Of a stretch of DNA of 64,000 bases, positions 13,419 through 31,454 are shown one piece after another. Below the pieces are notes generated by a model. That model worked only from the letters and a program-made list of their open reading frames with translations. It did not search any database and was not told the origin of the DNA. Where the stretch lies: NCBI GenBank assembly GCA_030583805.1, contig CP129476.1, positions 309,453-373,452 of the forward strand, given 5' to 3'. The DNA is from Patescibacteria group bacterium (GTDB lineage Bacteria; Patescibacteriota; Patescibacteriia; SG8-24; DYFX01). The position numbers and the translations under genes are program-made. The first letter of the stretch is position 1; every line of letters begins with the position of its first letter.

Positions 13419-13489
13419 TCGGGGATCGTCTAATGGTAGGACAACAGACTCTGAATCTGTTTATCTTGGTTCGAATCCAGGTCCCCGAG
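13419..13489 (+). tRNA. tRNA-Gln (anticodon CTG)
   Basis: Hand-folded cloverleaf: acceptor tcgggga/tccccga, D-arm gtc-taatggtag-gac, anticodon stem acaga/tctgt with loop ctCTGaa, T-arm cttgg-ttcgaat-ccagg, discriminator G, encoded CCA at 13490-13492. Confidence 0.85.
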
Positions 13490-13664
13490 CCAAAGAAATT
13501 AAGTTCAGGTAGACCGGAACCTCCGCCCAAAACTGACGGGGTTCCAATAGACCGGAATGCCTGAAATCGAATGTGAAAGCACTGGAGAGATCCGGTGTTT
13601 TCGTTTTGACGAAGCCTTTCCTGAGGGGTACGGTGATGTCCGAATAATAACCCTAATAAAGTGA

Positions 13665-16600
13665 GTGGTGGCCAAGCCTATTAAGAGGAAAATATACGCG
13701 GCCAATCTGACCACCCTCATGGGGTTTGGCCTATTCGGCATCCTTTCGGCCGAAGCCTACTATGTTGGATCTTCCACGGCCTCCAAGCTTGTGGGTGATT
13801 TCCACAGAGGTGATTACGGATATTGGCTGGCGACCATCTGCACGGGCTACCTGCTGTATGTCGTCGCCTATTTCATCTTGAGAGGCGGTCCGGCTGCTGC
13901 TGCGAAACTGCTTAAGAGCAGGCGCGCGGATGTCGTTGGTGTCTTCGTGGCCGGAGCACTGATGAGTATCTCGTTCGGCGGATTCGGCAGTCCCCTCTAT
14001 CAGAAATTGGCATATACACTCACCGTCTATCAAATACTCACGCTCGCCCTGCTGCCATTTGCGCTGGGACTTTTGATCTTGCTCCGAGCATTGCAGCGTG
14101 GTCCGGATCGAGAGGGCTTGCCGCCGTTTTTCATCAGCGACGTTGAGCAGAAAAACAAGACTGGCGACCTACTTGACCTTGCGGATGAGGCAGATCGGTT
14201 TGCAGAGCGCGTCTGGAACAACGGCTCAATAGAAAGCATGGTGTTCGGCATTGACGCGCCATGGGGCATCGGAAAGTCATCATTCGTAAATTTTTGCAGG
14301 GAGTCATGGGAAGGAAAACACAGAGGACGGGTCATCCTCTATAATTTCAATCCCCTAAGGTATGAAGATCGGGCGAATCTCCTTGAGAAGTTCGTCGACG
14401 GCCTTGTTCGCGTCGTACAAAAACACGCTTTTGTCCCAGAGATTAGGCCACTGGTTTCAAAATATTCTCGCTTCATCAAAAGCGCCAAAGCGTCATTCAG
14501 TTTTTTGGGGGTTGATTTCGAATTGGCACCCGGCACATATACGGTCGATGATGCCTTCGCAGATCTTGAATCAGCCCTGACCGACATCGACAGAAAAATT
14601 GTCATCGTCATCGACGATCTCGACAGGTTGGATTTCTCGGCGATTAAGGACGTCCTCTCTGTGATTAAGAAGAGTTTTAACCTGCCCAATGTTTCCTACG
14701 TCCTCTGCTACGACACTGAGAATATCAATGTGCTGGAAAGGGAACGGCCTGATGTTGAGAAAGTGACGGAGTTCCTTGAGAAATTCGTCAACGTCAAGGT
14801 GGGCCTGTACCTCGACAGCGAGACGCTCGCTAAATACGTCTCCACCAATCTCGCCAGGGCCCTAGTGGGTAACTCTCAGGCCGATCCGAAGCTGGTTTCG
14901 GCGGCGGTTGGTGGTCTCATCGACATCTATAAGTCTCCCGAATTCCACCGCTACCTGCCCTTCATCGGCGATGTTAGAAAAATCAAGAGGTTCATCAATA
15001 CACTCCTGCTTCTTGAAATCGAAAAGGCTGATTTCAAGAATAGTGATTTCGACAAGCAGGACTTGGTTCATCTGCTGTTGATCTATATTAATTATCCGAG
15101 CATCTTCCGGAAGATTTATAACGCCGAGACGAATGGGCGCCGGGGGTTCTTTTCGGTCGCCATGCCCCTCGATGATAACTACCCGAAGGATCCGAGTGCG
15201 GCGCGATCAGGACTAGAAAACACCTACAAAAACTCTACGGATTACGAGGCCTATGTGAAAAAACTTACCGATAACCAGAAATTCCTGCTCGGCAAGATTT
15301 TTGACGTTCCTCTAAGGTTGAAGGACGCGAGAATTGACGGCGTCCCTCAAGAAGCCAAGCATGTGTACGCTTGTTTCAATGGGGGCGTGTTCGGCGGCGG
15401 CCAAAATCTTGAGGCCTACCTCAATTTGATCGTCAAACTTTCCAAGCCCCAAAAGAGTGGCCAGTACAAGTTTTACGCAAATCTCAAGGACGAGATCCGC
15501 GACGGAAAGAAGTCCATCGATGATGTACTGTCAACATCCGATTTTTCGTATGATTGCCCAGAGAGCAACCGCGAACAGCTGTGGAAAGTCATCATCAACA
15601 GCCTGTCGGAATTCAAGAGTGTGGTGGGTAGCAAGCTGATCGTTCACCTGCTAGGGAATATGCAGAACTATTCCCTCTTCACAAATCAGGTGATTGGCGT
15701 CGGTTTGCGAGACGACCTAGATATTTTCCTGACGAGGCTGCTCGATCAGGTGGGTTGGAAGGATCAGAAAGGCGAGCACACCGACAACACCCCAGAAAAC
15801 ATTTCTGAAATTGCCGAATGGGTCTTTGGCGAAGGGCGGCACGCTGGTCAATCGGTTCTTTTGACACTCGCCAAAGAAGACCGCGGCACCCTCGGCCTCT
15901 ATGATCTGCTTTGCTTCCGCCTCTTTTGCAGCGCCGATCGAGGGGGTGATATCTTCAATCTTTCTCGTGCACTCTCAAAGCATGGCGACCCCAACGCACC
16001 GACAGATGGTTCAATAAGGGAGATTGCTATCGGGGAAATGCGTGAAATATCGCAAGCTGTCTTCGGTATTTTCAAGTCTCAATACATCGATCCCGGAAAA
16101 AACATTTTTGATTTAATCGATGGGCTCTCTTTGGCTGATTTTGCCGGAAAATACCAAGCATACATCGAAGGAAAGGTTACATCTGGAGAGATCGAAAATG
16201 CTGAAACTACGGTTGCCGATCTTAAGTCACGCATGAAGTCATTCATCACCTACCAACTGACCAATACCTACATCAGTAGCGGCGTCGGCTGCGGTTACTA
16301 CGACCCGTCAGGCAAAGAGGACGCTGGAGGAATCAGCCACAGCGTCAATGACTACCTTTTCGGTACGTGTTTTAACCCCAGCGTCGCCGGGAAAAATTAT
16401 GAACACTTCTTGGACTACTTGCTCATAAATTTTGCCAGCACCTTTGAATCAAGGGGTGGTCGTGAATACACCCCACATATCAATGAATTCACAAAAATCC
16501 TCGACAAGTCAAAGCTCGCAGAGTACTGGCGCGAACACGCCACCACGATCAGGGGTCTGAACCTAACTGAGAAGGAAAAGACAGTGATCACCTCAAATTA

Positions 16601-16700
16601 TTCTGCTTCGTACAAAGACGATCTGGCGGGCGTGTTTCAGGTGCTGGACAAGCTCATCGAAGAACCTGTAGTCGAGGCACCTGTCGCGCCTAGCGCTTAG
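13665..16700 (+). CDS. KAP family P-loop NTPase with four N-terminal transmembrane helices
   Basis: GTG start. Four hydrophobic helices in the first ~140 aa. FGIDAPWGIGKSSFVNF (KAP Walker A GxWGxGKS) and VIVIDDLDRL (Walker B). Confidence 0.8.
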   Translation: MVAKPIKRKIYAANLTTLMGFGLFGILSAEAYYVGSSTASKLVGDFHRGDYGYWLATICTGYLLYVVAYFILRGGPAAAAKLLKSRRADVVGVFVAGALMSISFGGFGSPLYQKLAYTLTVYQILTLALLPFALGLLILLRALQRGPDREGLPPFFISDVEQKNKTGDLLDLADEADRFAERVWNNGSIESMVFGIDAPWGIGKSSFVNFCRESWEGKHRGRVILYNFNPLRYEDRANLLEKFVDGLVRVVQKHAFVPEIRPLVSKYSRFIKSAKASFSFLGVDFELAPGTYTVDDAFADLESALTDIDRKIVIVIDDLDRLDFSAIKDVLSVIKKSFNLPNVSYVLCYDTENINVLERERPDVEKVTEFLEKFVNVKVGLYLDSETLAKYVSTNLARALVGNSQADPKLVSAAVGGLIDIYKSPEFHRYLPFIGDVRKIKRFINTLLLLEIEKADFKNSDFDKQDLVHLLLIYINYPSIFRKIYNAETNGRRGFFSVAMPLDDNYPKDPSAARSGLENTYKNSTDYEAYVKKLTDNQKFLLGKIFDVPLRLKDARIDGVPQEAKHVYACFNGGVFGGGQNLEAYLNLIVKLSKPQKSGQYKFYANLKDEIRDGKKSIDDVLSTSDFSYDCPESNREQLWKVIINSLSEFKSVVGSKLIVHLLGNMQNYSLFTNQVIGVGLRDDLDIFLTRLLDQVGWKDQKGEHTDNTPENISEIAEWVFGEGRHAGQSVLLTLAKEDRGTLGLYDLLCFRLFCSADRGGDIFNLSRALSKHGDPNAPTDGSIREIAIGEMREISQAVFGIFKSQYIDPGKNIFDLIDGLSLADFAGKYQAYIEGKVTSGEIENAETTVADLKSRMKSFITYQLTNTYISSGVGCGYYDPSGKEDAGGISHSVNDYLFGTCFNPSVAGKNYEHFLDYLLINFASTFESRGGREYTPHINEFTKILDKSKLAEYWREHATTIRGLNLTEKEKTVITSNYSASYKDDLAGVFQVLDKLIEEPVVEAPVAPSA

Positions 16701-17985
16701 CCACACTTAGATGTTGGTCTGCTAGAACAATGCTAGTTTTTACACAGAGGAGAAGCTCACGCTTTTCCTCTTTTGTTCCGTTGATTAGGACGTGGCGGAG
16801 GTACTTCTTGTGATCCAGCCGAGGCATTTTTGTGCTCGCCTCTGCACCGAGCATGGATGCCATGAAACGCTGATTCCGCTCAAGCTCGTCCTGGAATTTC
16901 TTTTTTGAAACCGCGTGGTCGATCTCCAGCTCGTCGAGGATGCCGACGAGCTGTTCAATGAGCACCTCCTCGCGAACGTACGGTTCCTTGCAGTCTTTGT
17001 CGGTGGTCCGCCCACAGTGATAGTAGACGTAGCGCTGGCGCGTGCCGTCGCGTAAGCTCTTGAACTTCTCCTGCGCTGTGACGCCGGAGCCGCACGCGCC
17101 GCACTTCATGAGGCGGGTGAAGGCAAACTCTTTCGACCCCCACTTGGTCTTTTTCTTTTCCATCGCCAGCTGCCTCTGCACGTCGTTGAACAATTCCTCC
17201 GTGACGATGGACTCGTGGGCCACCGGGAACCAGTTTCCGCTTCCGCATGGATACTCGAACCTGCCGTAGTAATAGGGGTTCCGGAGCATGAGGTAAATCA
17301 TGCTTAGCGGCAGTTTCTTGCCCTTCCGCGTTTTGAACCCGACCTCGTCGAGCCATACCTTGATCTTCCTGCCGCTGTGACCGAGGTTCGAGACGCGCTC
17401 GAACATCTCCTTGATGATTGGCGCACGTTCGGGATCGAGGAGAACCTTCTGCTCGCCCTTCATCGTTGTCTTGGTGTTGAAGTACCCGAGCGGCGACTGG
17501 TTCGGCCTCCAGCCCTGCTGCACCTTGGCACGTTGCCCCCGTTTCACGTTGACACCACGGTTGTCATTCTCGAGTTTTGCCTGACTGCACAGGATCATCA
17601 GCAGGAACTTCTCGTTCGGCGAGTTGGTGAAGTGCTGGCTCGGTGTTCGGATCTCGACGAGCTTCCCTTGATCCATGAGGTCGACGAGTGCCCCCAGGTC
17701 GCCGCCGTTGCGGCTGAGTCGGTCCGGTGCCCACGTCAGGATGCCGTTGAATGTCCCGGCGCGCACATCCGTGATCAGGCGGTTGTATTCCGGACGCTGG
17801 TTCGAGTCCTTCGCGGAGTGGCTCTCGCGCCGCGTCGCCACGACCTCCAGCTTCTCACGCTCGGCGAGCTCGAGCATCTCCTTGATCTGCGCGTCGATCG
17901 ACAGCGCCTGCCGCTCGTCCTGCTCGCTCGACTTCCGGGCGTACAGGCAGTACCGAACAGGTACGGCTTCAGTTGGCTTGTTCAT
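16690..17985 (-). CDS. Large serine recombinase (resolvase/invertase N-domain + recombinase domain + zinc ribbon)
   Basis: YCLYARKSSEQDERQALSIDAQ is the catalytic Ser region. CGACGSG in the C-terminal zinc-ribbon region. 431 aa. Confidence 0.85.
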   Translation of the reverse strand: MNKPTEAVPVRYCLYARKSSEQDERQALSIDAQIKEMLELAEREKLEVVATRRESHSAKDSNQRPEYNRLITDVRAGTFNGILTWAPDRLSRNGGDLGALVDLMDQGKLVEIRTPSQHFTNSPNEKFLLMILCSQAKLENDNRGVNVKRGQRAKVQQGWRPNQSPLGYFNTKTTMKGEQKVLLDPERAPIIKEMFERVSNLGHSGRKIKVWLDEVGFKTRKGKKLPLSMIYLMLRNPYYYGRFEYPCGSGNWFPVAHESIVTEELFNDVQRQLAMEKKKTKWGSKEFAFTRLMKCGACGSGVTAQEKFKSLRDGTRQRYVYYHCGRTTDKDCKEPYVREEVLIEQLVGILDELEIDHAVSKKKFQDELERNQRFMASMLGAEASTKMPRLDHKKYLRHVLINGTKEEKRELLLCVKTSIVLADQHLSVAKR

Positions 17986-18064
17986 AGCCCTTATTTGCCC
18001 TTACAGCCCCTTAATAGAAGGCATGTAGGACATCAATGCCGCACCCCGACCGTGAAGGCTAGGC

Positions 18065-18175
18065 TGGCCTTAAAAGCTCTTTAAAGCCATATGACACCGA
18101 CGAATCTCCGAACATCCCTGGCAATCCTGATGACAAGCATGGGGAAGGCATCCGCGAGATAGCTCGGCTATGCGA
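18065..18175 (-). pseudogene. Truncated 3' fragment of a second terminase large-subunit (terL) copy
   Basis: Reverse translation gives ...LADAFPMLVIRIARDVRRFVGVIWL*, matching the C-terminus of the intact TerL (...LADAFSMLVIRVAKDVRRFVGIIWL*). About 80% nt identity to 19360-19470. Confidence 0.7.
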
Positions 18176-18304
18176 ACCATCGAGACGAGGTCGGGATGAC
18201 ATTTTTGTCCCATAACGCACCATCATCGGATATTTGACGAGGATTAATCCACATGTTAGTCTTGCACCGGCTCACAACAACCACCCGAGCCATTGGAGGC
18301 AGAA

Positions 18305-18775
18305 ATGAAGCGCATCGTTCTTTTGACGGCGGTTCTCGCATACGGCGTGTTGACCTCGGGCTGTGTCGTGGATGACGACGGCGAGGACCTAGGGGTCACG
18401 GAGCAGGAGGTTACGGTCAACGACACACTGCCCACATCTGGGAGTAAGACGGTCAGCGTAGCCGTCTATCCTGGTGCACCCTCAGACATTATCATGAGTT
18501 CTCCGTCTTCCGGCAACTGGAAGTTCGAGACGTACGGCAGCCCAATCAGTCTGGGTGGTTGCTCGGCCGGCGACTTCATCGTCTACACCTACTGGCGAGA
18601 CACAAGCGTCAGCTCGACGTGGAACTACTGGCCAGGAGGCGGGCCGGTCTGTTACCCGACATCCGGGTGGTCGACGAACCTGTACAGCGGGAGCAGCACC
18701 ATTCAGTACAAGTTCGAGTACTACGCGTACGGCGGTTATGGCGAAACCGTTTACGCGAAGTTCACGAAGCAATAG
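18305..18775 (+). CDS. Hypothetical lipoprotein (Trp/Tyr/Ser-rich)
   Basis: GGAGG SD 5 nt upstream of the ATG. Signal peptide with lipobox LTSGC. Confidence 0.6.
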   Translation: MKRIVLLTAVLAYGVLTSGCVVDDDGEDLGVTEQEVTVNDTLPTSGSKTVSVAVYPGAPSDIIMSSPSSGNWKFETYGSPISLGGCSAGDFIVYTYWRDTSVSSTWNYWPGGGPVCYPTSGWSTNLYSGSSTIQYKFEYYAYGGYGETVYAKFTKQ

Positions 18776-18816
18776 TCGAGGGCTCGTACGTCGTGCTAGT
18801 ATGTGAATACAGCACG

Positions 18817-19287
18817 ATGTTTTTAAACCCAAACCATATGTCCATGCCCAAGCGTGTCCGGGAACTACTTTCCACAGCGTCCTTGTTGTTTTTTGTGTGG
18901 CTTTCCGCATTTAGTGGCGATTTCATTGCCGCGCGCACATTCCAAATGAATGATGCCTCCATCCGCAATCCTTGGTGGTCAGTAATCGTAATAGGGTTGC
19001 TCCAACTGATGTTCATGTACGTCGGAGCGCAAGCCATACTGCATATTCTTAAACCCGGCCGCGTCAATAAAAAGCTAGGATTACTTACAGCCCTAATCGC
19101 GTGGCTTTCACTAGAAAAAGTTCTCGCGTTTCCTCGATTGCTTGCGACTCTGCTTCCCAACGGGATTATCGGTACAAACACCGCTCTTTCTACGGTTATC
19201 GTAATTGCAGCACAACTTTCGGTGACGTATCTGCTGGTGTTGATTATCTCGCGCTTGTTGCTTACGGGAGAGGGTGATAGCAAGTGA
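18817..19287 (+). CDS. Hypothetical integral membrane protein (~4 TM)
   Basis: MFLNPNHMSMPKRV... start inside the longer track ORF. Multiple hydrophobic helices. Confidence 0.5.
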   Translation: MFLNPNHMSMPKRVRELLSTASLLFFVWLSAFSGDFIAARTFQMNDASIRNPWWSVIVIGLLQLMFMYVGAQAILHILKPGRVNKKLGLLTALIAWLSLEKVLAFPRLLATLLPNGIIGTNTALSTVIVIAAQLSVTYLLVLIISRLLLTGEGDSK

Positions 19288-19369
19288 CGATTGGGAGCAT
19301 ATAGTTACCGGGAGTAGCTAATGCCTTTCTGCTTGTGACTGTCTGGCTTGTGCCGCCCTTAAAAACCCC

Positions 19370-20860
19370 TTAAAGCCAGATGATACCGACGAATCGCCGA
19401 ACGTCCTTGGCAACCCTGATGACGAGCATCGAAAAGGCGTCCGCAAGATCGTCGTGTCGCTCCGCGCCGAAGCCGACGAGCTGGCGGATCAGGTCATCGC
19501 ATCCGGTCTTCGGAAAGTAGATGTTGCCGAGTTCCATCTCTCGCGCCGCCAGCGTTAGTCGCGCCCGCTTGTCCATGCCCTCTGGACTCACGCCGTAGGT
19601 CGTGAGGTTCGCGTGCTTCATAGTCTCGATCGCCGCGCGTTGAAAGGCGACGTCCTCGACGTAGAAGCGGTGGTACTTCCGATCCGTCATCGTCTTGGTG
19701 AGCTTGGCGGCCTGGATGATCCCTTCGAACGTGAGGTGCTTGTTCGTTACGAACGGCAGGATGTAAACGCGATAGTCCTCACAGAAACCCTGTCGGTCGG
19801 ATTTCTTGTACACGGCAGCGGTGACCATCGCGGTGTAGTCAGCCGACTCGCGCTGTGAAATCGCGAGATCTATACCAGTCGCCACAAACTCGAAGTGCCA
19901 CCCCGGTTCAAGAATGTTCGGCGGCTCGTCCGGAAGGCCCGCGTATCGCTTAATCCATTCCGGCTGCACGACCTGATCTCGGTCGGGCACGATCTCCTGC
20001 ATATACTCCCTGCGAAAGGCCCACTGGTCACCGATCTTTCGCTTGAGATCCTCGATGTGCTCCATCGTCGGGAACTTGGCCGGCCACGCGGGACACCCGT
20101 CTATGACGATCGGGTACTGGCGATAAATGCCGGTCAGTTCCTTTTTCTCAATCTCGTCCTTGAGACGGGCGACAAGCGATTCCTCGTGGAGGAGGTTGCC
20201 GACGATGAAGATGTTGCAGGAGTCGCCGCCCGCCGGGATGACTTCCGATTTCAGCCATCGATATCGCTTCTCACGGATCTCGCTCGAACGAACTGAATCG
20301 AGGTCCTCGACGTCGTCGATAATGATCAGGTCGGGGCGGTTGGAGTGGTTCTTGAGTCCTCGGAGTGAGCTGTCCGCCGAAAGCGCGACAATCCTCGCCT
20401 TGTATCGCGGTAGGACAAGCGAGTTCTCGTTCCAAATATCACCCACGTTGAACGGGCCGTAGTCATTGATGAGGCGGGCGTTCGTTTCCAGCTCAGACTT
20501 TATGTTGTAGAGGATCTGTTTGGCCTGCGGCTCGGTCTTGCTGATGATCAGGATGAACTTCTTGCGTCCCGTCACCGCCGCCCAGATGGGATACGAAAGC
20601 GAGGCGATCGTGGACTTGCCCGAGTTCCTGAAGGCGACCACGACACGGAGCGGGTCTGCACATGACTCCGTCAGCCGGAAGATCTCTTTATGAAAGAGGG
20701 CGAACGGCACCGTCATGTGCTCGCCGAGATACGTCATGAAGAACCACAGATGACTTTCCGTGGTGAGACCGATCCGAAAGGCGCGCTCCTTCTCGATACG
20801 CGAGAAGGTTTCCTCAAGAGATCCGTTTTGAGGTTGAATTCTTTCCTGCATCGCCGTCAT
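19370..20860 (-). CDS. terL: Phage terminase large subunit (TerL; ATPase + RNaseH-like nuclease)
   Basis: AFRNSGKST (Walker A), LIIIDDVED (Walker B), ATGIDLAISQRESADYTAMV in the nuclease domain. Start taken at MTAMQERIQ, overlapping the terS 3' end. Confidence 0.85.
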   Translation of the reverse strand: MTAMQERIQPQNGSLEETFSRIEKERAFRIGLTTESHLWFFMTYLGEHMTVPFALFHKEIFRLTESCADPLRVVVAFRNSGKSTIASLSYPIWAAVTGRKKFILIISKTEPQAKQILYNIKSELETNARLINDYGPFNVGDIWNENSLVLPRYKARIVALSADSSLRGLKNHSNRPDLIIIDDVEDLDSVRSSEIREKRYRWLKSEVIPAGGDSCNIFIVGNLLHEESLVARLKDEIEKKELTGIYRQYPIVIDGCPAWPAKFPTMEHIEDLKRKIGDQWAFRREYMQEIVPDRDQVVQPEWIKRYAGLPDEPPNILEPGWHFEFVATGIDLAISQRESADYTAMVTAAVYKKSDRQGFCEDYRVYILPFVTNKHLTFEGIIQAAKLTKTMTDRKYHRFYVEDVAFQRAAIETMKHANLTTYGVSPEGMDKRARLTLAAREMELGNIYFPKTGCDDLIRQLVGFGAERHDDLADAFSMLVIRVAKDVRRFVGIIWL

Positions 20861-21317
20861 TTTTCGGTTTCGAGTTGGCCTCTGTCTCTGCCAGCCCAGT
20901 TTCGCCGCCGGCCGCCTCCGCGAGAAGCGCAACGGATTGTCGGATGATCTCTTTCTGTGTATCCGAGATCTCGACGGGCTCCTGCTGTTGCGGCGCGAGG
21001 AGTTCGACTTTTGTCGCGTATGCGCGGTGGTGGTGCTTGAGCCAGAAGATCACGGCCGTGAGGTTTCCTTCCCTAATGGCAGTCATGAGCTGTGACTCAG
21101 CCATGTCGTTCACAAGACCCGCGCCGGTCTCAACGGCCTCGTCGACGGCGGCGGCGAACGCCGCGTCATCCTTCCGCCAGCGGTAAAATGTTGCGCGGCC
21201 GATCCCGACCTTTTGGCAGGCTCCTTGAACGATCGGCCGCTTGCGTAGCTCTTCGACCAGAACCTCTTTCTGCTTTTCCTGCCGTATGGTGACGGCGTCC
21301 TTCTTCTCAGTCCCCAT
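20814..21317 (-). CDS. terS: Phage terminase small subunit (TerS, HTH + FWLK motif)
   Basis: HTH CQKVGIGRATFYRWRK and NLTAVIFWLKHHHRAY, resembling Terminase_2-family small subunits. Sits immediately upstream of terL. Confidence 0.65.
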   Translation of the reverse strand: MGTEKKDAVTIRQEKQKEVLVEELRKRPIVQGACQKVGIGRATFYRWRKDDAAFAAAVDEAVETGAGLVNDMAESQLMTAIREGNLTAVIFWLKHHHRAYATKVELLAPQQQEPVEISDTQKEIIRQSVALLAEAAGGETGLAETEANSKPKNDGDAGKNSTSKRIS

Positions 21318-22638
21318 ATGAGATGCGTGTGGCCTTGAGGCCTGTCAGGTTCTCCCAGCGCTTCCGGATGACCTCGGCGTACACGGGGCTTTTCTCCATC
21401 AGGAAACATCGGCGCTTGAGCTTCGTCGAAGCGATCAGCGTGCTGCCACTCCCGCCAAACGGCTCGATGACGAGGTCGCCGCGCTTCGTGAGCATCTTGA
21501 TGTATGGAATCAGGATTTCGGTCGGCTTCGTGCCGAAGATGACGCCCTGACCCGAGTGCTTTTCGTCGGACGAGCGGAACTCGATGAAGTCCGTGGGGCA
21601 GTTCTTTTTGCCCTTCTCGTAGGACTCCCATTGCGGCTTGCCGCTGATGGCGTAGAGGGCGGTCTCGTACTCCTCTTGGAGCGGGGCGTCTTCCGGCTCA
21701 TTGTTGTATGGGACGTCGCCTGACGCGCCGACCATGGCGATGTCATGCTTATTGAAGAACCGGTATTTCGACGAGAAGCCCTGATGCCGGTTTTCGAGAT
21801 GCCACACGATCATGTTCTTCACCTTCCAACGCTTCTCCATCTCGTCCCAGATCGTCCGGATGTTCTTCCAGTTTTCAAACACGATGATGGCGAAGTTTGG
21901 CTTGGCCGACGCCGCCACGCTGTTCATCCATAGCTCGGTGAAGTTGTCTGGCAGGGACTCGGTCTCGAGGTAGCGTCGGTCCCGCTTATAGCCGAAGCCG
22001 GTCACCGGATCGCCGTGCTTCTTCTTGCCCTTCAGGTAATCGAGAATGTAAGGTGGGTCCGTCATGCACATGTCGGCCTTCTCGCTGCCCATGAGCTTCT
22101 GGAATTCCGCTTCGACGGTCGAGTCCCCACACATGAGGCGACTGTCGCCGAGCGCCCAGACATCGCCCTTCTTGATCTCGATCTCGTTGATGTCCAATTT
22201 TTCGAGCTCCTTCTGTAGGTCGAACGTCTCTGGCGTATCCTCGACGTCGAAGATGCGGTCGAGTTCTTGACTCGAGAACCCGACGTCGGACAGGAATGAC
22301 TCGTCAAACTTGGCCAGCATTTCCCAATCGAACTCTCCGGTCGTGAGGTTGCTTCGGACGTTATACTCCTCGAACTCTTCCATTGTGAGCTTCCGATTCG
22401 GGACGCGCACGTCGATTTCTTCCTCCCCGCGCCCAAGCGCCAGCAGAATCTTGATCCTCTGATGCCCGGCGATGAGACGATTATCCGTATCGATCGCGGG
22501 GATCTCTACGAGATTGAATCTTTCAAGCGACCGCTTGAGCTGTTCCACTTGCTCGTCGGAAATCTTGCGAGGATTTCCCTCCCACGGCAGGATCTCCGCG
22601 ACCTTTCTTTTCTCCGTAAGCCAGTGAAGGCTGTCCAT
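21307..22638 (-). CDS. ParB-like nuclease N-terminal domain fused to N6-adenine/N4-cytosine DNA methyltransferase
   Basis: LIAGHQRIKILLALG (ParB/Srx fold), MTDPPY (motif IV DPPY) and EPFGGSGST (motif I). 11-nt overlap with the terS start. Confidence 0.85.
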   Translation of the reverse strand: MDSLHWLTEKRKVAEILPWEGNPRKISDEQVEQLKRSLERFNLVEIPAIDTDNRLIAGHQRIKILLALGRGEEEIDVRVPNRKLTMEEFEEYNVRSNLTTGEFDWEMLAKFDESFLSDVGFSSQELDRIFDVEDTPETFDLQKELEKLDINEIEIKKGDVWALGDSRLMCGDSTVEAEFQKLMGSEKADMCMTDPPYILDYLKGKKKHGDPVTGFGYKRDRRYLETESLPDNFTELWMNSVAASAKPNFAIIVFENWKNIRTIWDEMEKRWKVKNMIVWHLENRHQGFSSKYRFFNKHDIAMVGASGDVPYNNEPEDAPLQEEYETALYAISGKPQWESYEKGKKNCPTDFIEFRSSDEKHSGQGVIFGTKPTEILIPYIKMLTKRGDLVIEPFGGSGSTLIASTKLKRRCFLMEKSPVYAEVIRKRWENLTGLKATRISYGD

Positions 22639-22710
22639 AAAAAATGGTCATGATGAGTTATCACCATGACCATATCAATCGACAGGTTCGGGTCGTGGGA
22701 AGTCTGACCC

Positions 22711-23520
22711 CTATGATTTCCCACGCTTCCGGAATCGTTTTTTCCTTGTTTTCTCAAGATCCTTCACGATGTAGCGAACCGCATCAGATTTCTTGTCGGT
22801 GCCCAAAAGTTCCGATGCAATTTCGGCCGTCGTGGTCTTGTAGGGCTTCTGTTCGACCGGATCAAACTGTTCCCCCCGTCGGTACCACTCTTCGATGCTG
22901 AGATCGCGGTCGATGTGCTTCATCGGCTTGTAACGCGGCATACCCCTATGCTTTGCGAACCATTCGACCTGCTGCATCGCGAGGCGGATATCTTCTTGGG
23001 TCGGTATCGTATAGAACGTGACTGGGATGTGTCGCACCGTGCTGAGCCTTTCGTTTGATCTCAGCTCTGTCCAAGGTCCGATGACAAAATTATGATACGG
23101 GGCAGTTATCCTGCCTTGGACGATGTACGTGTCAACGTGGTTCTGATAGTTCTCCGGGAGGTTAAACTTTTCGACAATGAAACGCGCCCTGCCCGATCGG
23201 TAGTTGATGGGCACCTCCTCGCGGTAAAGGTTGATCCGCCTGTAGTACTCGTCTGAATTTATTTTCTTGGCCTTCCATTCATCGGTGATAGCTCGACCGC
23301 GGGCATAATAATCAGGCTTTCCAAGAACTGCGTCGCTGGCGGCAATCCACGAATCCGACCAGCGCTTCATGTCATCGTCAGTCTTTAACCCGCCGCCCGC
23401 GATTCCAAGCGTCTGTCGCACCTCCGCGACGATATTCTGAAACTCCTTGTCAGAAACAAGGAGTTTCATATTCGCCAAATTGGCTTCGTAGCATTTCGGG
23501 TGCTTGTGCGGCTTCGCCAT
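22711..23520 (-). CDS. Hypothetical protein (269 aa, basic C-terminus)
   Basis: Clean ORF in the low-GC island, divergent from the Type III mod gene. No motif I recognise. Confidence 0.5.
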   Translation of the reverse strand: MAKPHKHPKCYEANLANMKLLVSDKEFQNIVAEVRQTLGIAGGGLKTDDDMKRWSDSWIAASDAVLGKPDYYARGRAITDEWKAKKINSDEYYRRINLYREEVPINYRSGRARFIVEKFNLPENYQNHVDTYIVQGRITAPYHNFVIGPWTELRSNERLSTVRHIPVTFYTIPTQEDIRLAMQQVEWFAKHRGMPRYKPMKHIDRDLSIEEWYRRGEQFDPVEQKPYKTTTAEIASELLGTDKKSDAVRYIVKDLEKTRKKRFRKRGKS

Positions 23521-23765: not shown

Positions 23766-23881
23766 CTGTCTAGACCCAACCCGAACAGGGCAAGTTTTGC
23801 CTATTTCCGGATCGCGCGCATAGAGCGGCATCCGGATAAAACAATCCTCGCACGATCCGTGCTTGGGTTGGGTCTAGACAC
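23766..23881. promoter_or_regulatory. Inverted-repeat-rich control region between divergent genes
   Basis: gtctagacccaacccgaaca (23766-23786) and its complement cttgggttgggtctagac (23860-23879), about 75 bp apart. Internal palindromic tccgga sites. GGGTGTCGCT direct repeat at 23578 and 23886. Confidence 0.5.
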
Positions 23882-23940: not shown

Positions 23941-25662
23941 ATGCCTCAAAATCCTGCCCAACTAAAAGAAGGAGAGCTGCTGCTTCGTGTTGCGGAGCTT
24001 GAATCCGAGATAAAAAAGTTAAAGGAGAGAAAAAAGTACGGTCTCGTCTGGGAGGATCGGTCGGAAGACGTGGTTTTGCAATGCCGCGAAAATGTTCCGA
24101 TTCTTCAAGAATACAAGGCGCAAAAAATCGTCACTGATGAAGCAACGTCCGCAAACATCCTAATCGAGGGCGATAACTATCACGCCCTCTCCGTGTTGAA
24201 CTATACCCATCGAGAGGCTTTCGACGTAATCTATGCCGACCCACCTTATAACACTGGCAATAAAAGCTGGCGGTATAACAACGACTACGTTGAGAAGGAC
24301 GACGATTTCAAGCACAGCAAGTGGCTATCCTATATTCACAAGCGCCTCCTTTTGGCGAAAAACCTACTGACGGATTCGGGCATCCTGATATTTGCTATTG
24401 ACGATTATGAAGCCCACACCCTGCGTCTGCTCCTTGATGAGGTCATGGGTGAGGATAATCGCCTCGGCACGATAGCTGTAGTACACAATCCTCGCGGAAG
24501 AAACGACGATCAATTTTTTGCGACCCAGCACGAATACATGCTCGTTTACGCAAAAGATCATAGCAGGGCTGAAATAGGAAACTTCGAACTCACGGAAGAA
24601 GACCGCAACCAATATAAAAAACATGATGAGATTTCTCCGTACGCAGAAACGTCGTTTATGCGCACTGGAAACAACTCAAACCATCACGAAAGACCCAAAC
24701 TTTTTTACCCCATATTTTTTAATCCGAGAACCCGGAAGCTCTCTCTAAAATTAGAGAAAGGGGGCATCGAAATACTGCCAATCAACGAAGCGGGTGAAGA
24801 GAAAACGTGGCGCTGGGGTAAAGAGACTTTTGAAAGGCTGTGCGACACCGATCTTTTTGTAAAGACTGTTAAGGGCAGGGATCGGATTTTTAAGAAAAGA
24901 AGACTAACGGTCGATACGGGAAAGAAACCAAAGAGCGTCTGGTATAACTCCAGGTATGATGCCTCGACACAAGGCATCATGGTTTTGCAGGACATTTTTG
25001 GCCGCGGCAATCATTTCAATTACCCAAAATCATTGCTCTTGATGGAGGATATTTTGGAGATCACTTCAAAGCCAGACTCGCTAGTCCTCGATTTTTTTGC
25101 TGGAAGTGGCACCACTGGTCACGCCGTTCTCAAGCTCAATAAGAAAGATGGCGGCAACCGTCGCTTCGTACTGTCTACGAACAATGAAAATAAGATTTGC
25201 GAGGAGGTAACCTATGAACGCCTGAAACGCGTTATAAAGGGTTATACGAATAGCAAAGACAAAAATACTGTGGGCCTCGGCGGAAATCTGACTTACTACA
25301 AAACCGCCCTCGTGAGCATCGACCAGCTTCAGAAGGTATCTGACGAAGCAAAAATCAAGATTGCATATCAGGCAGGCGAGATGATTGCCGTCCGGGAGAG
25401 CACGCCGGATGAGTTAGAAAAAAATGACTGGTGGCAGCTGTTCGGGGGAAGCGGAAAAATCATGGCCGTCTACTTCAAGGAGGACAAGGCCAGGCTATCC
25501 GACCTCGTAAAGAAACTCGAAAAAACAGGCCGCCCGGTCGTGCTGTATGTCTTCGGTTGGGGCAAGAACGAATACAAGAACGAGTACGGGTCGGGAAAGA
25601 TCCGCGTCGAGGACATCCCCGAACCTATCCTTGAGGTCTACAAGGAACTGAACCGTCTCTAG
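23941..25662 (+). CDS. mod: Type III restriction-modification system methyltransferase (Mod)
   Basis: DVIYADPPYNTG (motif IV) and DFFAGSGTTGHA (motif I). N6-adenine MTase beta-class layout, followed by res. Confidence 0.9.
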   Translation: MPQNPAQLKEGELLLRVAELESEIKKLKERKKYGLVWEDRSEDVVLQCRENVPILQEYKAQKIVTDEATSANILIEGDNYHALSVLNYTHREAFDVIYADPPYNTGNKSWRYNNDYVEKDDDFKHSKWLSYIHKRLLLAKNLLTDSGILIFAIDDYEAHTLRLLLDEVMGEDNRLGTIAVVHNPRGRNDDQFFATQHEYMLVYAKDHSRAEIGNFELTEEDRNQYKKHDEISPYAETSFMRTGNNSNHHERPKLFYPIFFNPRTRKLSLKLEKGGIEILPINEAGEEKTWRWGKETFERLCDTDLFVKTVKGRDRIFKKRRLTVDTGKKPKSVWYNSRYDASTQGIMVLQDIFGRGNHFNYPKSLLLMEDILEITSKPDSLVLDFFAGSGTTGHAVLKLNKKDGGNRRFVLSTNNENKICEEVTYERLKRVIKGYTNSKDKNTVGLGGNLTYYKTALVSIDQLQKVSDEAKIKIAYQAGEMIAVRESTPDELEKNDWWQLFGGSGKIMAVYFKEDKARLSDLVKKLEKTGRPVVLYVFGWGKNEYKNEYGSGKIRVEDIPEPILEVYKELNRL

Positions 25663-25666
25663 TGAT

Positions 25667-27994
25667 ATGTTTCCACTCAAGCCATTCCAAGAGCAGGCGG
25701 TCGCAAAGCTGAAGAACGAGTTTCTTTCTCTTTGGAAGTCGCCTCACCATAATGTACCGCTCGTCTTCAAGTCGCCAACGGGTTCCGGCAAGACGATCAT
25801 GCTCGCGCAGTTCCTGCGCGACATCGTGAGCGATCCGCGCTTTCAAGGCAACGATGTGGCGTTTCTGTGGTTCTCGTTCAGCGAGGACTCCTACGTCCAA
25901 AGCAAGGAGAAGCTGTTCGCGTACTACGGCGGCGCTTCAGAGCTGGACCTGCTCGATCTGAACGACCTCACCCGAGGCAGGCTTCAGAAAAATAACGTCT
26001 TCTTCATCAACTGGCAGAAGATCAAGGGTAAGTCGAAGGACAGCCGAAAACTACGGCGCGAGAACGAATGGGGCCTGACATTTGATAACGTCATCAATAA
26101 GACCCACGAGGACGGACGCAAGCTCGTGGTCATTATCGACGAGGAACACGTCGGGGCGGATACGGACCTTGCGCTTGAGGTCATCGACGGCCTCATCCGT
26201 CCGAAGGTCACCATACGTGTCTCGGCGACGCCCAAGTACATTCCAAATGCGGAAGAGATCGCCGATGGGAAGGGCGGCTTCGTCAACGTAAAACGGGACG
26301 AGGTGGTTCTGGCCGGACTCATCAAGGAAAAAATTATCTTCCAGACGGAAGAAGACCTCAACAAGAAGGAGTTCAAGAGCGCCGACCAGGACGAGATTCT
26401 TCTTGAGCTTGCTTATCGCAAGCGACTCGATCTGATCCGCTGGTACAAGGAGATTGGCATCGATATCAACCCACTCGTCCTCGTCCAGCTCCCGAACGAT
26501 GATCAAGAATCGAAGACGAATGTCGCAACGAAACGCGGCATCGTTTCCGACTACCTCAAGCGGAAAGGTGTTTCGGAAAGCGAGATAGGCGTTTGGCTTT
26601 CGAATGAAAAGGTGAACCTTGAGAACATCGAGGCGAACGAGTCGCCTGTCTCTTTCCTTTTATTCAAGCAGGCGGCCGCGACCGGCTGGGACTGCCCGAG
26701 AGCGGGAGTGCTCGTCATGTTCCGCGAGATCAAGAACCCGACGTTCGCCATCCAAACGGTCGGCCGCATTTTGCGCATGCCGTTGGGTTCCCATTTTCCG
26801 CGTCCCGAACTCAACGTCGGCTATCTGTACACCAACTATAAAAGGAACGAGGTACTGGCCGAATATGCGAAATCGAAGTCCGACAACCGGCCGGCGATCA
26901 ACGGGAGCTATCGTAAAGCAGACGTGAAGTCGATCACGCTCGATTCGGTCTTCATGAGCCGTACGGACTACAACGACCTAGGCGACACCTTCCAGGCGAT
27001 ATTTGGGACGGCAGCCGATGGTCATTTCGGTATCAGCGACAAAGACGGCAAGCAGACTGCTCTCGATAAGCTCGCCAAGAAAGGCTTCGATACGTCGCCG
27101 AAGGTCACGAACGGCCTCATCGTCGGCGTCGAGATCGACGACTATGACAACTTCATCCAGGAGCTTGTCGCCGAGGGTGCGAGCCACGATCAGGAGATGT
27201 CGGAATACGACCTTGAACGCCTCTACAACCTCCTCTGCTTCAAGCTGATCGCCAAACAGACCGATGAACAAAAGAAGTTCGCGCCCGAGCGCTCTTGGGG
27301 AAAGCTCAAGACGGCGCTCAACGTCTGGATGATCGGACGTACGAGGGAATTCCGCCGGGCTGCCTACAGAATGATCGTCAATGACCTCCTGAACCCCGCA
27401 AGCGTCCTCGCACCGCTCATCGGCTCCTCGTTGGCGCTATATCGCCCTCTTCGAGAGCAAGAAGTGAACAGGCGTTCCGAGCGGTCGAAACGCACAGAGA
27501 CGATTGATCTCCCCCGCGAGGCACTGTTCTTCACTGATCAGTACACGGAGATGAAGGTGAAGAAATGCGCGATGTCGCCCTTCTACATCGAGAAGGACTA
27601 TCAAGGGGAGGATAATGAAAAGGGGTTCATTGCCTTCCTTGAGAGCCATAAGAATGTCCTCTGGTGGCACAAGAACGGTGATATCGGGAGCGAGCATTTT
27701 TCGATCTCGTACTACAACCCGGACGAAAACAAGGAGAGGCTCTTTTATCCCGACTGGATCGTGAAGACGCCTGCCGCCGTCTGGATCATTGACACCAAGC
27801 AGGGAGCGACGGCCGAGCTCGCCGACACCAAGCATAAGGCAGAGGCGCTACAGGCCTGGTTAAAGAGCAGGAAAGGCTTTGCTGGAGGCATAGCCGTTCA
27901 AGACGGCCCGAACGGGTGGAAACTGAACAGGAACTCTAAATACTCCTATGCGCCCTCGTTCACAGGATGGGAAGCCTTTAATGATTTGCTGTGA
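25667..27994 (+). CDS. res: Type III restriction enzyme Res subunit (SF2 helicase + endonuclease)
   Basis: FKSPTGSGKT (Walker A) and VVIIDEEHV (DEEH box). Immediately downstream of mod. Confidence 0.9.
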   Translation: MFPLKPFQEQAVAKLKNEFLSLWKSPHHNVPLVFKSPTGSGKTIMLAQFLRDIVSDPRFQGNDVAFLWFSFSEDSYVQSKEKLFAYYGGASELDLLDLNDLTRGRLQKNNVFFINWQKIKGKSKDSRKLRRENEWGLTFDNVINKTHEDGRKLVVIIDEEHVGADTDLALEVIDGLIRPKVTIRVSATPKYIPNAEEIADGKGGFVNVKRDEVVLAGLIKEKIIFQTEEDLNKKEFKSADQDEILLELAYRKRLDLIRWYKEIGIDINPLVLVQLPNDDQESKTNVATKRGIVSDYLKRKGVSESEIGVWLSNEKVNLENIEANESPVSFLLFKQAAATGWDCPRAGVLVMFREIKNPTFAIQTVGRILRMPLGSHFPRPELNVGYLYTNYKRNEVLAEYAKSKSDNRPAINGSYRKADVKSITLDSVFMSRTDYNDLGDTFQAIFGTAADGHFGISDKDGKQTALDKLAKKGFDTSPKVTNGLIVGVEIDDYDNFIQELVAEGASHDQEMSEYDLERLYNLLCFKLIAKQTDEQKKFAPERSWGKLKTALNVWMIGRTREFRRAAYRMIVNDLLNPASVLAPLIGSSLALYRPLREQEVNRRSERSKRTETIDLPREALFFTDQYTEMKVKKCAMSPFYIEKDYQGEDNEKGFIAFLESHKNVLWWHKNGDIGSEHFSISYYNPDENKERLFYPDWIVKTPAAVWIIDTKQGATAELADTKHKAEALQAWLKSRKGFAGGIAVQDGPNGWKLNRNSKYSYAPSFTGWEAFNDLL

Positions 27995-28461
27995 ACAAGA
28001 GTCGTCACCTTGAGGTACTAATAGAATCCGTGAGAGATAAGTGTGACTTCCTAGCTGAGGCGAACAACACGTTAGATGGGAAAGCTGCGACATTAATGGG
28101 CTTTGAGATCACCCTCGGCATAGGCTACGCGTCATTGGTACTTGGAAATGTGGGTGGTACTAATCATGACGAGGGTGTCGCTGGGTTATTCATGTTGGGC
28201 ATGTCTGTAGCTTCTCTGCTGTACGTGAACTGGCCCCGAGATTACACGACGACCTGCGTCGATCTTTTCGAACACACAGAATACCTGGAGAAGGGGACGG
28301 GAGATTTGTTGCTCCAATTAACGAGTGATGCACAGAACGCCTTCTCTCAAAACAACCAAAAATTGAAAACCAAGGCCAGGTTCTATAAAGCTGCGATCGT
28401 CCTGCTTCTCGTCGCTACATTCTTGTTCCTGATGTCAAAATCACCAAACTTCTATGTCTGA
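27991..28461 (+). CDS. Hypothetical small membrane protein (3 TM), translationally coupled to res
   Basis: ATGA-type overlap with the res stop. Hydrophobic segments ITLGIGYASLVLGNVGG, VAGLFMLGMSVASLLYV and AAIVLLLVATFLFLM. Confidence 0.55.
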   Translation: MNKSRHLEVLIESVRDKCDFLAEANNTLDGKAATLMGFEITLGIGYASLVLGNVGGTNHDEGVAGLFMLGMSVASLLYVNWPRDYTTTCVDLFEHTEYLEKGTGDLLLQLTSDAQNAFSQNNQKLKTKARFYKAAIVLLLVATFLFLMSKSPNFYV

Positions 28462-30009: not shown

Positions 30010-30022
30010 AAGACCGCCTCGC

Positions 30023-30889: not shown

Positions 30890-31099
30890 ACAGGACAAAG
30901 AGCAAACGAGTTGTACCCGTTTTTACCCTTTTTTATGTTTTACGCTCGGAGTGATTATTTTCACTCCCGAATGGGAGGAAGTTAACGAAGTGGGTGTTTT
31001 TTGTCAAGAAAATATAGGAGTGTTCGTGACATTGACGCATGGGGCCTGTCAGCGTACAGTTGAGTTATATTTGTACGCATTATAAGCTTACGTAAGACT

Positions 31100-31450: not shown

Positions 31451-31454
31451 CACG

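What the first reader, a model, noticed from the sequence alone, without database searches (positions are those of the whole stretch)
13665..16700. Membrane-anchored KAP-family P-loop NTPase as first island gene: candidate phage-exclusion (PifA-like) factor
This 1011-aa protein has four N-terminal TM helices, a KAP Walker A (APWGIGKSSF) and a DD Walker B (VIVIDDLDRL), followed by a ~500-aa C-terminal region with no motif I recognise. KAP NTPases include the F-plasmid PifA phage-exclusion protein. It sits between the tRNA integration site and a serine recombinase, where defence cargo usually lies. The unrecognised C-terminal half could be an effector domain.
Basis: partly seen in the sequence, partly recalled or inferred. 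Interest (0 to 1): 0.65.

Follow-up and report, generated by a model that had tools for sequence, protein, structure and literature searches.

The report
Membrane-anchored KAP NTPase, mobile defence candidate
This is a real 1011-residue membrane-anchored KAP-type ATPase gene. It rides at the tRNA end of a phage-like mobile element in a Patescibacteria genome. It is a plausible but untested anti-phage gene that shares only its ATPase core with the F-plasmid protein PifA.

Summary
ORF 13665-16700 (+) encodes 1011 aa with three to four N-terminal membrane helices, a KAP P-loop domain (Pfam E 9e-41) and a ~520-aa all-helical C-terminal domain with no Pfam, PDB or viral-structure relative.

It belongs to a coherent ~1000-aa family, about 283 clusters at 50% identity. 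The family is conserved end to end, patchy across bacteria and common in Patescibacteria. It is not housekeeping: GC3 is 0.60 against 0.68-0.86 in flanking core genes, neighbourhoods vary, and no partner gene is conserved.

The gene is cargo of a compact element: large serine integrase, TerL, TerS and a ParB-methylase. In several genomes this element sits beside different tRNA genes, often with restriction-modification systems.

Similarity to F PifA is confined to the NTPase domain (22% identity). PifA lacks the membrane helices and the C-terminal domain, so this is not a PifA orthologue.

A 2026 study showed that other KAP NTPases fused to unknown C-terminal regions, encoded next to serine recombinases, protect against phage.

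Verdict: probable single-gene defence or superinfection-exclusion factor, and a new variant of a known kind. The mechanism is inferred, not shown: C-terminal sensor, NTPase switch, membrane effector or anchor. Interest is moderate.

The parts
13419..13492 (+). tRNA-Gln (anticodon CTG), chromosomal landmark at the left edge of the island
   Evidence: ARAGORN. In homologous loci a tRNA or tmRNA of a different identity lies directly next to the KAP gene: Asn, Gln(ttg), Ser, Arg, Glu, Gly, tmRNA.
13502..13612 (+). Conserved non-coding leader of the KAP gene. It starts about 10 nt after the tRNA end. It contains a terminator-like hairpin (stem 13580-13585/13592-13597, T-run 13598-13607) and a possible -35 TTGACG at 13606-13611, with a possible -10 TACGGT further on at 13629-13634.
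   Evidence: The leader aligns with the equivalent region of L065, which lies downstream of a different tRNA (Asn) and different core genes. The hairpin stem keeps pairing through a T-to-C change. The promoter hexamers were read from the sequence and did not pass the consensus scan, so they are inference only.
13665..16700 (+). KAP-family P-loop NTPase gene, 1011 aa (the GTG at 13668 is an alternative start)
   Evidence: ORF and translation. Identical NCBI protein and more than 120 full-length homologues. AlphaFold2 model with pLDDT 87.5 and pTM 0.76.
13698..14096 (+). N-terminal membrane region, residues 12-144, with 3-4 transmembrane helices. It is the least conserved part of the family (32% mean pairwise identity).
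   Evidence: Hydropathy and positive-inside analysis. Helical bundle in the model. Conservation by region.
14190..15011 (+). KAP P-loop NTPase domain, residues 176-449. Walker A is at 14256-14279 (APWGIGKS). Walker B is at 14601-14627 (VIVIDDLDR).
   Evidence: Pfam PF07693, E 9.1e-41. The motifs are invariant in 116 sequences. The fold resembles RdrA, Orc/Cdc6, Avs4 and Apaf-1.
15129..16664 (+). Family-specific all-alpha C-terminal domain, residues 489-1000, with many invariant polar residues. Examples are the YACFNGG, SADRGGD, GCGYYD and NTPEN (consensus NTEEN) motifs.
   Evidence: Model pLDDT 90.9. No PDB or BFVD match at E<0.001. No Pfam family. Found only in ~1000-aa proteins of this architecture, 283 clusters. 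Motifs.
16690..17985 (-). Large serine recombinase (integrase), convergent with the KAP gene and overlapping it by 11 nt
   Evidence: Pfam Resolvase, Recombinase and Zn_ribbon_recom. PHROG integrase, E 7e-69. Orthologues at 50-78% identity lie in the same position in L007, L012, L028 and L065.
19370..22638 (-). Phage-like core of the element: TerL (19370-20932), TerS-like (20814-21317) and a ParB-domain DNA methyltransferase (21307-22638)
   Evidence: PHROGs: TerL 1e-72, TerS 2.5e-10, methyltransferase 2e-70. Pfam. The same gene order next to KAP occurs in L007 and L065. Rearranged versions occur in L012, L013, L017, L028 and L029.
23941..27994 (+). Type III restriction-modification pair in the same island: Mod 23941-25662, Res 25667-27994
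   Evidence: Pfam N6_N4_Mtase and ResIII. A methylase plus ResIII-helicase pair lies directly next to KAP homologues in L005, L010, L017 and L042, and the neighbour set gives PADLOC type III MTase and REase hits.

Best explanation
The gene encodes a stand-alone, membrane-anchored KAP P-loop NTPase. It is an accessory cargo gene of a compact phage-like mobile element made of a large serine integrase, TerL, TerS and a ParB-methylase. The element has inserted beside tRNA-Gln.

The most likely function is single-protein defence against phage or other incoming DNA, that is, superinfection exclusion on behalf of the element and its host.

Inferred mechanism, by analogy with STAND/Avs proteins, PifA and Tmn:
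1. The cytoplasmic, family-specific all-helical C-terminal domain recognises an infection cue.
2. This changes the nucleotide state or oligomerisation of the KAP NTPase.
3. The signal passes to the N-terminal 3-4-helix membrane module. That module either perturbs membrane or ion integrity or simply positions the complex where phage DNA enters.

Shown here: domain anatomy, family membership, mobility and genomic context. Inferred: the defence role, which domain senses and which acts, and any effect on the membrane.
For: **KAP domain and fold**
- KAP domain and intact Walker motifs.
- STAND/AAA+-like fold. The best PDB match is the RADAR defence ATPase RdrA, followed by Orc/Cdc6, Avs4 and Apaf-1.
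- PADLOC PifA model E 4e-29, with weaker hits to QatA and PDC-S20.

**Foreign composition**
- GC3 0.60 against 0.68-0.86 in core genes.

**Distribution**
- Only 63 loci in 185,579 species genomes, in unrelated phyla, plus Burkholderia plasmids.

**Stand-alone unit**
- No conserved partner gene, even by phmmer.

**Cargo of a mobile element**
- KAP, its leader, the serine integrase, TerS and the methylase are collinear with L065 next to a different tRNA. Protein identities are 69% (KAP), 78% (integrase), 77% (TerS) and 83% (methylase).
- KAP lies between TerL and the integrase in L029, and between integrases and the TerS-methylase genes in L013.
- A tRNA or tmRNA lies directly next to KAP in about 10 Patescibacteria loci.
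- On the one IMG/VR contig with a full-length member, KAP sits between a serine integrase and a nuclease, an HTH repressor-like gene and an HTH-M78 peptidase gene.

**Defence neighbourhood**
- RM genes and serine recombinases are the commonest neighbours. A methylase plus ResIII-helicase pair is directly adjacent in four loci.

**Published precedent**
- KAP NTPases with membrane helices and unknown C-terminal regions, encoded next to serine recombinases, protect against phage. They need both the Walker B motif and the C-terminal region (PMC13552941).
- PifA is thought to sense T7 proteins and cause membrane depolarisation (PMC8594841).
- The membrane NTPase Tmn senses a phage protein and collapses the cytoplasm (PMC13001434).
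Against: - No experiment exists for this family.
- The neighbourhood evidence is suggestive, not statistical. Only about 20 of 148 neighbouring genes are RM or recombinase genes, and many loci show nothing defence-related.
- The C-terminal domain is well conserved (51% mean identity, many invariant polar residues). That is unusual for a sensor in an arms race and could equally mark an enzyme or a partner-binding surface.
- The membrane region is the most variable part (32%). This fits an anchor as well as an effector.
- The characterised EF_KAP does not act by abortive infection, so a PifA-style membrane-collapse model need not apply.
- No member was found in 50,697 deposited phage genomes.
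Confidence: 0.55

Rival explanations
1. The protein is a defence protein, but the roles are reversed. The conserved C-terminal domain is a new enzymatic or otherwise active effector. The membrane helices only anchor the protein, and no membrane damage or abortive infection occurs.
For: - Many invariant polar and cysteine residues lie in the C-terminal domain, in motifs such as SADRGGD, GCGYYD, NTPEN (consensus NTEEN) and YACFNGG.
- It is more conserved than the membrane region.
- EF_KAP needs its C-terminal region and is not abortive (PMC13552941).
Against: - The fold is all-helical. The only structural matches are non-significant ARM/HEAT-like solenoids, which usually bind rather than catalyse.
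- No catalytic family is detected by Pfam or by a PDB sequence profile.
- The domain is never found recombined with other NTPases, unlike typical effector modules.
Confidence: 0.25
2. The protein works for the mobile element itself rather than for host defence. Possible roles are membrane-associated control of excision, packaging, transfer or lysogeny.
For: - Tight, recurrent linkage to the integrase and the TerS/TerL/methylase module, including an overlapping convergent gene end.
- Position in the integrase-proximal lysogeny region on L067.
Against: - Most family members, including all those in Paenibacillus and Pseudomonas and many in Patescibacteria, have no such module nearby.
- GC3 differs from the integrase, TerL and methylase genes: 0.60 against 0.76-0.80.
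- KAP diverges at a different rate from the module genes.
- Its position within the element varies.
Confidence: 0.12
3. The gene is a conserved housekeeping or envelope-signalling gene of Patescibacteria.
For: - High full-length conservation: 47-69% identity across classes of Patescibacteria.
- Many carriers are Patescibacteria.
Against: - Only 63 loci in 185,579 species genomes, and only 283 clusters in 1.84 billion representatives.
- The family also occurs in Paenibacillus, Pseudomonas, Burkholderiales, Ignavibacteria and on plasmids.
- Neighbourhoods are unrelated between genomes.
- Composition is foreign.
- Several copies are split into two ORFs.
Confidence: 0.04
4. The gene is an orthologue of F-plasmid PifA and works the same way: it senses T7-like gp1.2 or capsid protein and causes membrane leakage.
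For: - PADLOC PifA model E 4e-29.
- BLASTP E 3e-14 and hhalign probability 97.7% against F PifA.
Against: - The match covers the NTPase domain only, at 22% identity.
- The C-terminal halves are unrelated.
- PifA has no N-terminal membrane helices.
- No pifC-like gene lies upstream.
- tblastn against 72,556 plasmids did not recover F-type pifA.
Confidence: 0.04

Closest known systems
[quoted passage not shown]
   Same: - A single protein with membrane helices, a KAP NTPase domain and a long C-terminal region with no recognisable domain or structural relative.
- Encoded beside a serine recombinase on mobile DNA.
   Different: - This protein has 3-4 helices, all N-terminal and none inside the NTPase domain. 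EF_KAP has one N-terminal helix and one inside the domain.
- The C-terminal region is ~520 aa here and 322 aa in EF_KAP.
- The recombinase here is a large serine integrase, convergent and not co-transcribed.
- The hosts are Patescibacteria.
- Sequence relatedness to those proteins could not be tested, because their sequences are not held.
- There are no experimental data for this family.
PifA of the E. coli F plasmid (phage T7 exclusion)
   Same: - KAP NTPase core, homologous at 22% identity (hhalign probability 97.7%).
- A single-gene system on a mobile element.
- Membrane-associated action is reported for PifA.
   Different: - PifA is 741 aa with no predicted membrane helices.
- Its C-terminal half is unrelated.
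- It is expressed from the pifC-pifA operon.
- No full-length similarity exists.
Antiviral STAND NTPases (Avs) and RdrA of RADAR
   Same: - Three-part layout with a central oligomerising NTPase and a helical C-terminal region.
- RdrA is the best structural match, and Avs4 and Apaf-1 are also matched.
   Different: - TM-scores are low (0.15-0.26) and apply mainly to the NTPase.
- There is no NACHT or NB-ARC signature.
- There are no TPR repeats.
- No RdrB-like partner gene is present.
[quoted passage not shown]
   Same: A membrane-embedded P-loop NTPase that acts alone as a defence protein.
   Different: - It belongs to a different NTPase family, with helices inserted in the P-loop domain.
- It has no large accessory domain.
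- No PADLOC Tmn model was matched.
QatA of the QatABCD system
   Same: KAP-type NTPase, with weak HMM similarity over residues 435-523.
   Different: - NCBIfam QatA scores 39.5 bits against a cut-off of 600.
- No QatB, QatC or QatD genes are nearby.

Membership tests
KAP family P-loop NTPase (Pfam PF07693) | Match to the family HMM above the curated threshold | tested here: met
   140.4 bits against a cut-off of 20, E 9.1e-41, residues 176-449 covering model positions 5-288 of 293. All 26 homologues scanned also match.
KAP family P-loop NTPase (Pfam PF07693) | Intact Walker A (GxxGxGKS/T) and Walker B (hhhhDDxDR) motifs | tested here: met
   WGIGKS at residues 200-205 and VIVIDDLDR at 313-321. 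Both are invariant in 116 sequences.
KAP family P-loop NTPase (Pfam PF07693) | Two or four transmembrane helices associated with the NTPase. In the original description they are inserted within it (Aravind et al. 2004, recalled from memory). PMC13001434 describes four helices outside the P-loop domain. | tested here: inconclusive
   3-4 helices are present, but all precede the NTPase (residues ~15-142), and none lies after residue 150. Membrane association is met. Insertion within the domain is not. PifA itself lacks helices, so this feature does not hold for every family member.
PifA (F-plasmid T7 exclusion protein) | Full-length sequence similarity to F PifA | tested here: not met
   BLASTP aligns residues 191-481 with PifA 46-357 at 22% identity. 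hhalign aligns 159-481 with PifA 14-357. Nothing matches beyond those ranges.
PifA (F-plasmid T7 exclusion protein) | pifC-pifA operon context | tested here: not met
   Upstream lies tRNA-Gln and a non-coding leader. No PifC/RepC-like gene is present. The F locus was read for comparison.
PifA (F-plasmid T7 exclusion protein) | Exclusion of T7 triggered by gp1.2 or gp10, with membrane leakage | not testable with these tools
   This needs phage challenge and membrane-potential assays. The facts about PifA come from PMC8594841.
KAP-plus-unknown-region antiphage proteins (PMC13552941) | KAP NTPase with membrane helices, fused to a long C-terminal region without known domains or structural relatives | tested here: met
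KAP-plus-unknown-region antiphage proteins (PMC13552941) | [quoted passage not shown] | tested here: not met
   The adjacent recombinase is a large serine recombinase of 431 aa with Recombinase and zinc-ribbon domains. It lies on the opposite strand, convergent with KAP.
KAP-plus-unknown-region antiphage proteins (PMC13552941) | Phage protection that depends on the Walker B motif and on the C-terminal region | not testable with these tools
   An experiment is required.
QatA (QatABCD) | NCBIfam equivalog score and QatB, QatC and QatD neighbours | tested here: not met
   39.5 bits against a cut-off of 600. No such neighbours are present.
STAND/Avs pattern-recognition NTPases | NACHT or NB-ARC type NTPase with a repeat-type sensor domain and an N-terminal effector | tested here: inconclusive
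   Structural matches to Avs4, Apaf-1 and RdrA are significant by E-value but have TM-scores of 0.11-0.26. NACHT was hit only at E 0.064, in 1 of 26 members. The C-terminal domain gives only non-significant solenoid matches. The layout is analogous. Membership is not shown.

The most novel reading that the evidence does not exclude
This ~1000-aa family could be a distinct, uncharacterised single-protein immune module. It would have a new all-helical sensor fold, a KAP NTPase switch and an N-terminal four-helix membrane effector. It would spread among Patescibacteria and other phyla in the tRNA-proximal cargo slot of a previously undescribed compact element. That element has a serine integrase, TerS, TerL and a ParB-methylase but no capsid genes, which suggests a phage-satellite-like element in ultra-small bacteria.
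Probability: 0.3. Interest if true: 0.65.

Novelty: new variant of a known kind. Interest (0 to 1): 0.45.

Why it matters
Defence systems of Patescibacteria, the ultra-small and mostly episymbiotic bacteria, are poorly known. Membrane-anchored KAP NTPases have only just been shown to be antiphage proteins.

This family offers a well-defined, highly conserved test case with a confident structure model. Homologues in culturable hosts (Paenibacillus, Pseudomonas, Burkholderia plasmids) could be tested directly.

Its C-terminal domain has no relative among solved or viral structures and may be a new sensor or effector.

The recurrent linkage to a compact integrase-terminase-methylase element beside tRNA genes also points to a mobile element type in these bacteria that may carry defence cargo. 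This would resemble the defence hotspots of phage satellites.

Full report
**1. The observation**

The ORF is real. Coordinates 13665-16700 on the + strand give 1011 codons from a GTG start. An identical protein, one residue shorter, is deposited at NCBI as 'P-loop NTPase fold protein [Patescibacteria group bacterium]' on a 1.17-Mb contig.

- **Motifs.** Both are invariant in an alignment of 116 homologues.
- **KAP domain.** Pfam KAP_NTPase matches residues 176-449 with E 9.1e-41.
- **Membrane helices.** Hydropathy analysis finds strong hydrophobic segments at 54-72, 90-108 and 124-142. A weaker one at about 15-35 did not pass the threshold and was read from the sequence. None lies after residue 150. 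Lys/Arg-rich loops fit an N-in/C-in topology, which places the NTPase and C-terminal domain in the cytoplasm.
- **Neighbours.** tRNA-Gln(ctg) lies at 13419-13492. A large serine recombinase at 16690-17985 (-) overlaps the gene end by 11 nt.
- **Composition.** The gene has GC 0.50 and GC3 0.60. Flanking core genes have GC3 0.68-0.86.

**2. The family**

The word-index protein search returned 606 hits. The top 120 are mostly full-length proteins of ~1000 aa (a few are truncated), at 47-69% identity. The named ones are mostly Patescibacteria.

The alignment is conserved along its whole length, including the C-terminal half. That half has many invariant polar residues and cysteines, in motifs such as YACFNGG, SADRGGD, GCGYYD, NTPEN (family consensus NTEEN) and EEMREISQ.

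Mean pairwise identity by region:

| Region | Mean pairwise identity |
|---|---|
| Membrane region | 32% |
| NTPase domain | 62% |
| C-terminal domain | 51% |
| Residues 701-830 | 59% |

An exhaustive HMMER search with the C-terminal domain alone, against 1.84 billion representative proteins, found only 283 clusters. Most are 900-1100-aa proteins with the domain at about 480-1000. The shorter hits look like fragments. The domain therefore exists only in this architecture.

**3. Structure**

AlphaFold2 with the 116-sequence alignment gives a confident full-length model (pLDDT 87.5, pTM 0.76). It shows an N-terminal helical bundle, an alpha/beta P-loop domain and an all-alpha C-terminal domain.

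Foldseek against PDB matches the model best to RdrA, the ATPase of the RADAR defence system. Orc/Cdc6, Avs4, Apaf-1 and SAMD9 follow. This is the STAND/AAA+-like neighbourhood, but TM-scores are low.

The C-terminal domain modelled alone is also confident (pLDDT 90.9). It has no match at E<0.001 in PDB, where the best hits are generic ARM/HEAT solenoids with TM-scores up to 0.31. It has none in the viral structure set BFVD either. A profile search of PDB sequences and Pfam scans of 26 members found nothing beyond the KAP domain.

**4. Relation to PifA**

The PADLOC PifA model scores E 4e-29. I fetched F-plasmid PifA itself, 741 aa, downstream of pifC.

- BLASTP aligns residues 191-481 with PifA 46-357 at 22% identity.
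- Profile comparison aligns residues 159-481 with PifA 14-357, probability 97.7%.
- The C-terminal halves do not match, and PifA has no N-terminal membrane region. PMC13001434 also states that PifA lacks transmembrane helices.

The protein therefore shares the KAP core with PifA but is not its orthologue. QatA is excluded as well: 39.5 bits against a cut-off of 600, and no Qat neighbours.

**5. Not housekeeping; mobile cargo**

A scan of one genome for each of 185,579 species found 63 loci. About half are in Patescibacteria lineages: Parcubacteria, Saccharibacteria, Peregrinibacteria, Paceibacterota and Altimarinota. The rest are in Paenibacillus/Cohnella, Burkholderiales, Pseudomonas, Stenotrophomonas, Ignavibacteria, Flavobacteriaceae and others. 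Burkholderia glumae plasmids carry full-length members.

I called ORFs in all loci and clustered 812 neighbouring proteins. No partner gene is conserved, even by phmmer on the adjacent same-strand ORFs. The gene is a stand-alone unit.

The commonest neighbour families within two genes are serine recombinases, DNA methylases, ResIII helicases, Mrr nucleases and type I specificity subunits. A methylase plus ResIII-helicase pair lies directly next to the gene in L005, L010, L017 and L042.

**6. The element**

The genes next to KAP in the window are, in order:

- a large serine integrase (PHROG integrase, E 7e-69);
- two small unknown ORFs;
- TerL (E 1e-72);
- a TerS-like gene (E 2.5e-10);
- a ParB-domain methyltransferase (E 2e-70).

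No portal or capsid genes are present. The same compact set next to a KAP gene recurs elsewhere:

- L007 and L065 have the same order as the window.
- L012 and L028 have the convergent integrase and the TerS-methylase pair.
- L017 has a methylase plus ResIII-helicase pair inserted between KAP and the integrase.
- L029 has KAP between TerL and the integrase.
- L013 has KAP between two integrases and the TerS-methylase genes.

In L065, which carries the closest homologue, protein identities to the window are 69% (KAP), 78% (integrase), 42% (TerL), 77% (TerS) and 83% (methylase). There the unit lies after ClpP and tRNA-Asn instead of tRNA-Gln.

About 110 nt of non-coding leader is nevertheless conserved between the two loci. 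It begins about 10 nt after the tRNA end and includes a terminator-like hairpin that keeps pairing through a base change. This places the left boundary of the element at the tRNA and puts the KAP gene inside it.

A tRNA or tmRNA lies directly next to the KAP gene in about ten Patescibacteria loci, and its identity differs between loci.

The alternative was that the integrase element inserted into the KAP gene. It is not supported. The KAP C-terminus is intact, and no displaced fragment exists elsewhere in the window.

On the single IMG/VR contig with a full-length member, KAP lies between a serine integrase and a group of genes for a nuclease, an HTH protein and an HTH-M78 peptidase. That is a lysogeny-type region. 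Deposited phage genomes contain no member.

**7. Mechanism**

What is shown:

- a cytoplasmic KAP NTPase tethered by 3-4 N-terminal helices;
- a family-specific helical C-terminal domain;
- no partner gene;
- carriage as cargo on mobile elements together with RM systems.

What is inferred is the function. It is most likely defence or superinfection exclusion. The published precedents are:

- PLoS Biol 2026 (PMC13552941). KAP NTPases with membrane helices and unknown C-terminal regions, found beside small serine recombinases, reduced plaquing by up to six logs. They required the Walker B motif and the C-terminal region. In the case of EF_KAP they did not act by abortive infection.
- PifA. It is thought to sense T7 proteins and depolarise the membrane (PMC8594841).
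- Tmn. This membrane NTPase senses a phage protein and causes plasmolysis (PMC13001434).

By analogy with STAND proteins, I favour this order of events: the C-terminal domain senses the cue, the NTPase acts as the switch, and the membrane module is the output or anchor.

The reversed assignment, with the C-terminal domain as effector, cannot be excluded. The high conservation of that domain gives it some support.

**8. Verdict**

'PifA-like' holds only for the NTPase core, and the 'effector' role of the C-terminal half is unsupported.

The protein belongs to an uncharacterised, well-delimited family and is best described as a new variant of a known kind. Interest is moderate. There is no functional evidence yet. 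The family is clean, partly present in culturable hosts, structurally novel in its C-terminal half, and tied to an unusual compact mobile element in Patescibacteria.

Noticed in passing
window 16690-23520; also L007, L012, L013, L017, L028, L029, L065: A compact, recurrent gene set is conserved in several Patescibacteria genomes: large serine integrase, one or two small ORFs, TerL, TerS-like and a ParB-domain methyltransferase. It has no portal, capsid or tail genes. It looks like a satellite-like or minimal phage-derived mobile element rather than a decayed prophage. Between the window and L065, TerL is only 42% identical while the integrase, TerS and methylase are 77-83% identical, so the element is mosaic.
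   Followed up: partly
window 18063-18160 and 19352-19449: A 98-nt direct repeat (83% identical) brackets a ~1.2-kb segment between the integrase and TerL. The segment carries + strand ORFs of unknown function (18293-18775, 18559-19287). The second copy covers the 3' end of TerL. This looks like a second variable cargo slot or an insertion scar. L007 and L065 have different small ORFs at this position.
   Followed up: no
window 27991-28461; L024 2545-3018: A 156-aa ORF of unknown function lies directly after the type III Res gene. It has a 39%-identical homologue directly downstream of a KAP-family gene in an Ignavibacteriaceae contig. This is the only example of a second accessory gene shared between KAP neighbourhoods in distant lineages.
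   Followed up: no
window 28645-30898 and 31100-33417: A second serine recombinase (28645-30009) and a ParB-like gene (30023-30898) both have low GC3 (0.55-0.57). They are followed by a run of short, overlapping + strand ORFs. The island may be composite, with two elements in tandem. Its right-hand boundary, between about 31 and 33.5 kb, was not resolved.
   Followed up: partly
window 23767-23790 / 23857-23880: A 24-nt inverted repeat (88% complementary, 66 nt apart) lies just upstream of the type III Mod gene, which starts at 23941. It could be a regulatory or recombinase-invertible site.
   Followed up: no
L015 1177-2853, L016 2008-3662, L059 5414-6971, L049 10753-12406: A different family of large serine recombinases (about 400-545 aa) has its gene end overlapping the 3' end of a tRNA gene (Asn, Gln or Glu). 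A KAP-family gene lies a few kb away. This suggests serine integrases that target tRNA genes in these bacteria.
   Followed up: no
L021, L039, L050, L058, L060: The KAP-family gene is split into two ORFs in five of the 63 genome loci. These may be pseudogenes, which would fit a dispensable accessory gene. They may instead be frameshift errors in long-read metagenome assemblies.
   Followed up: no
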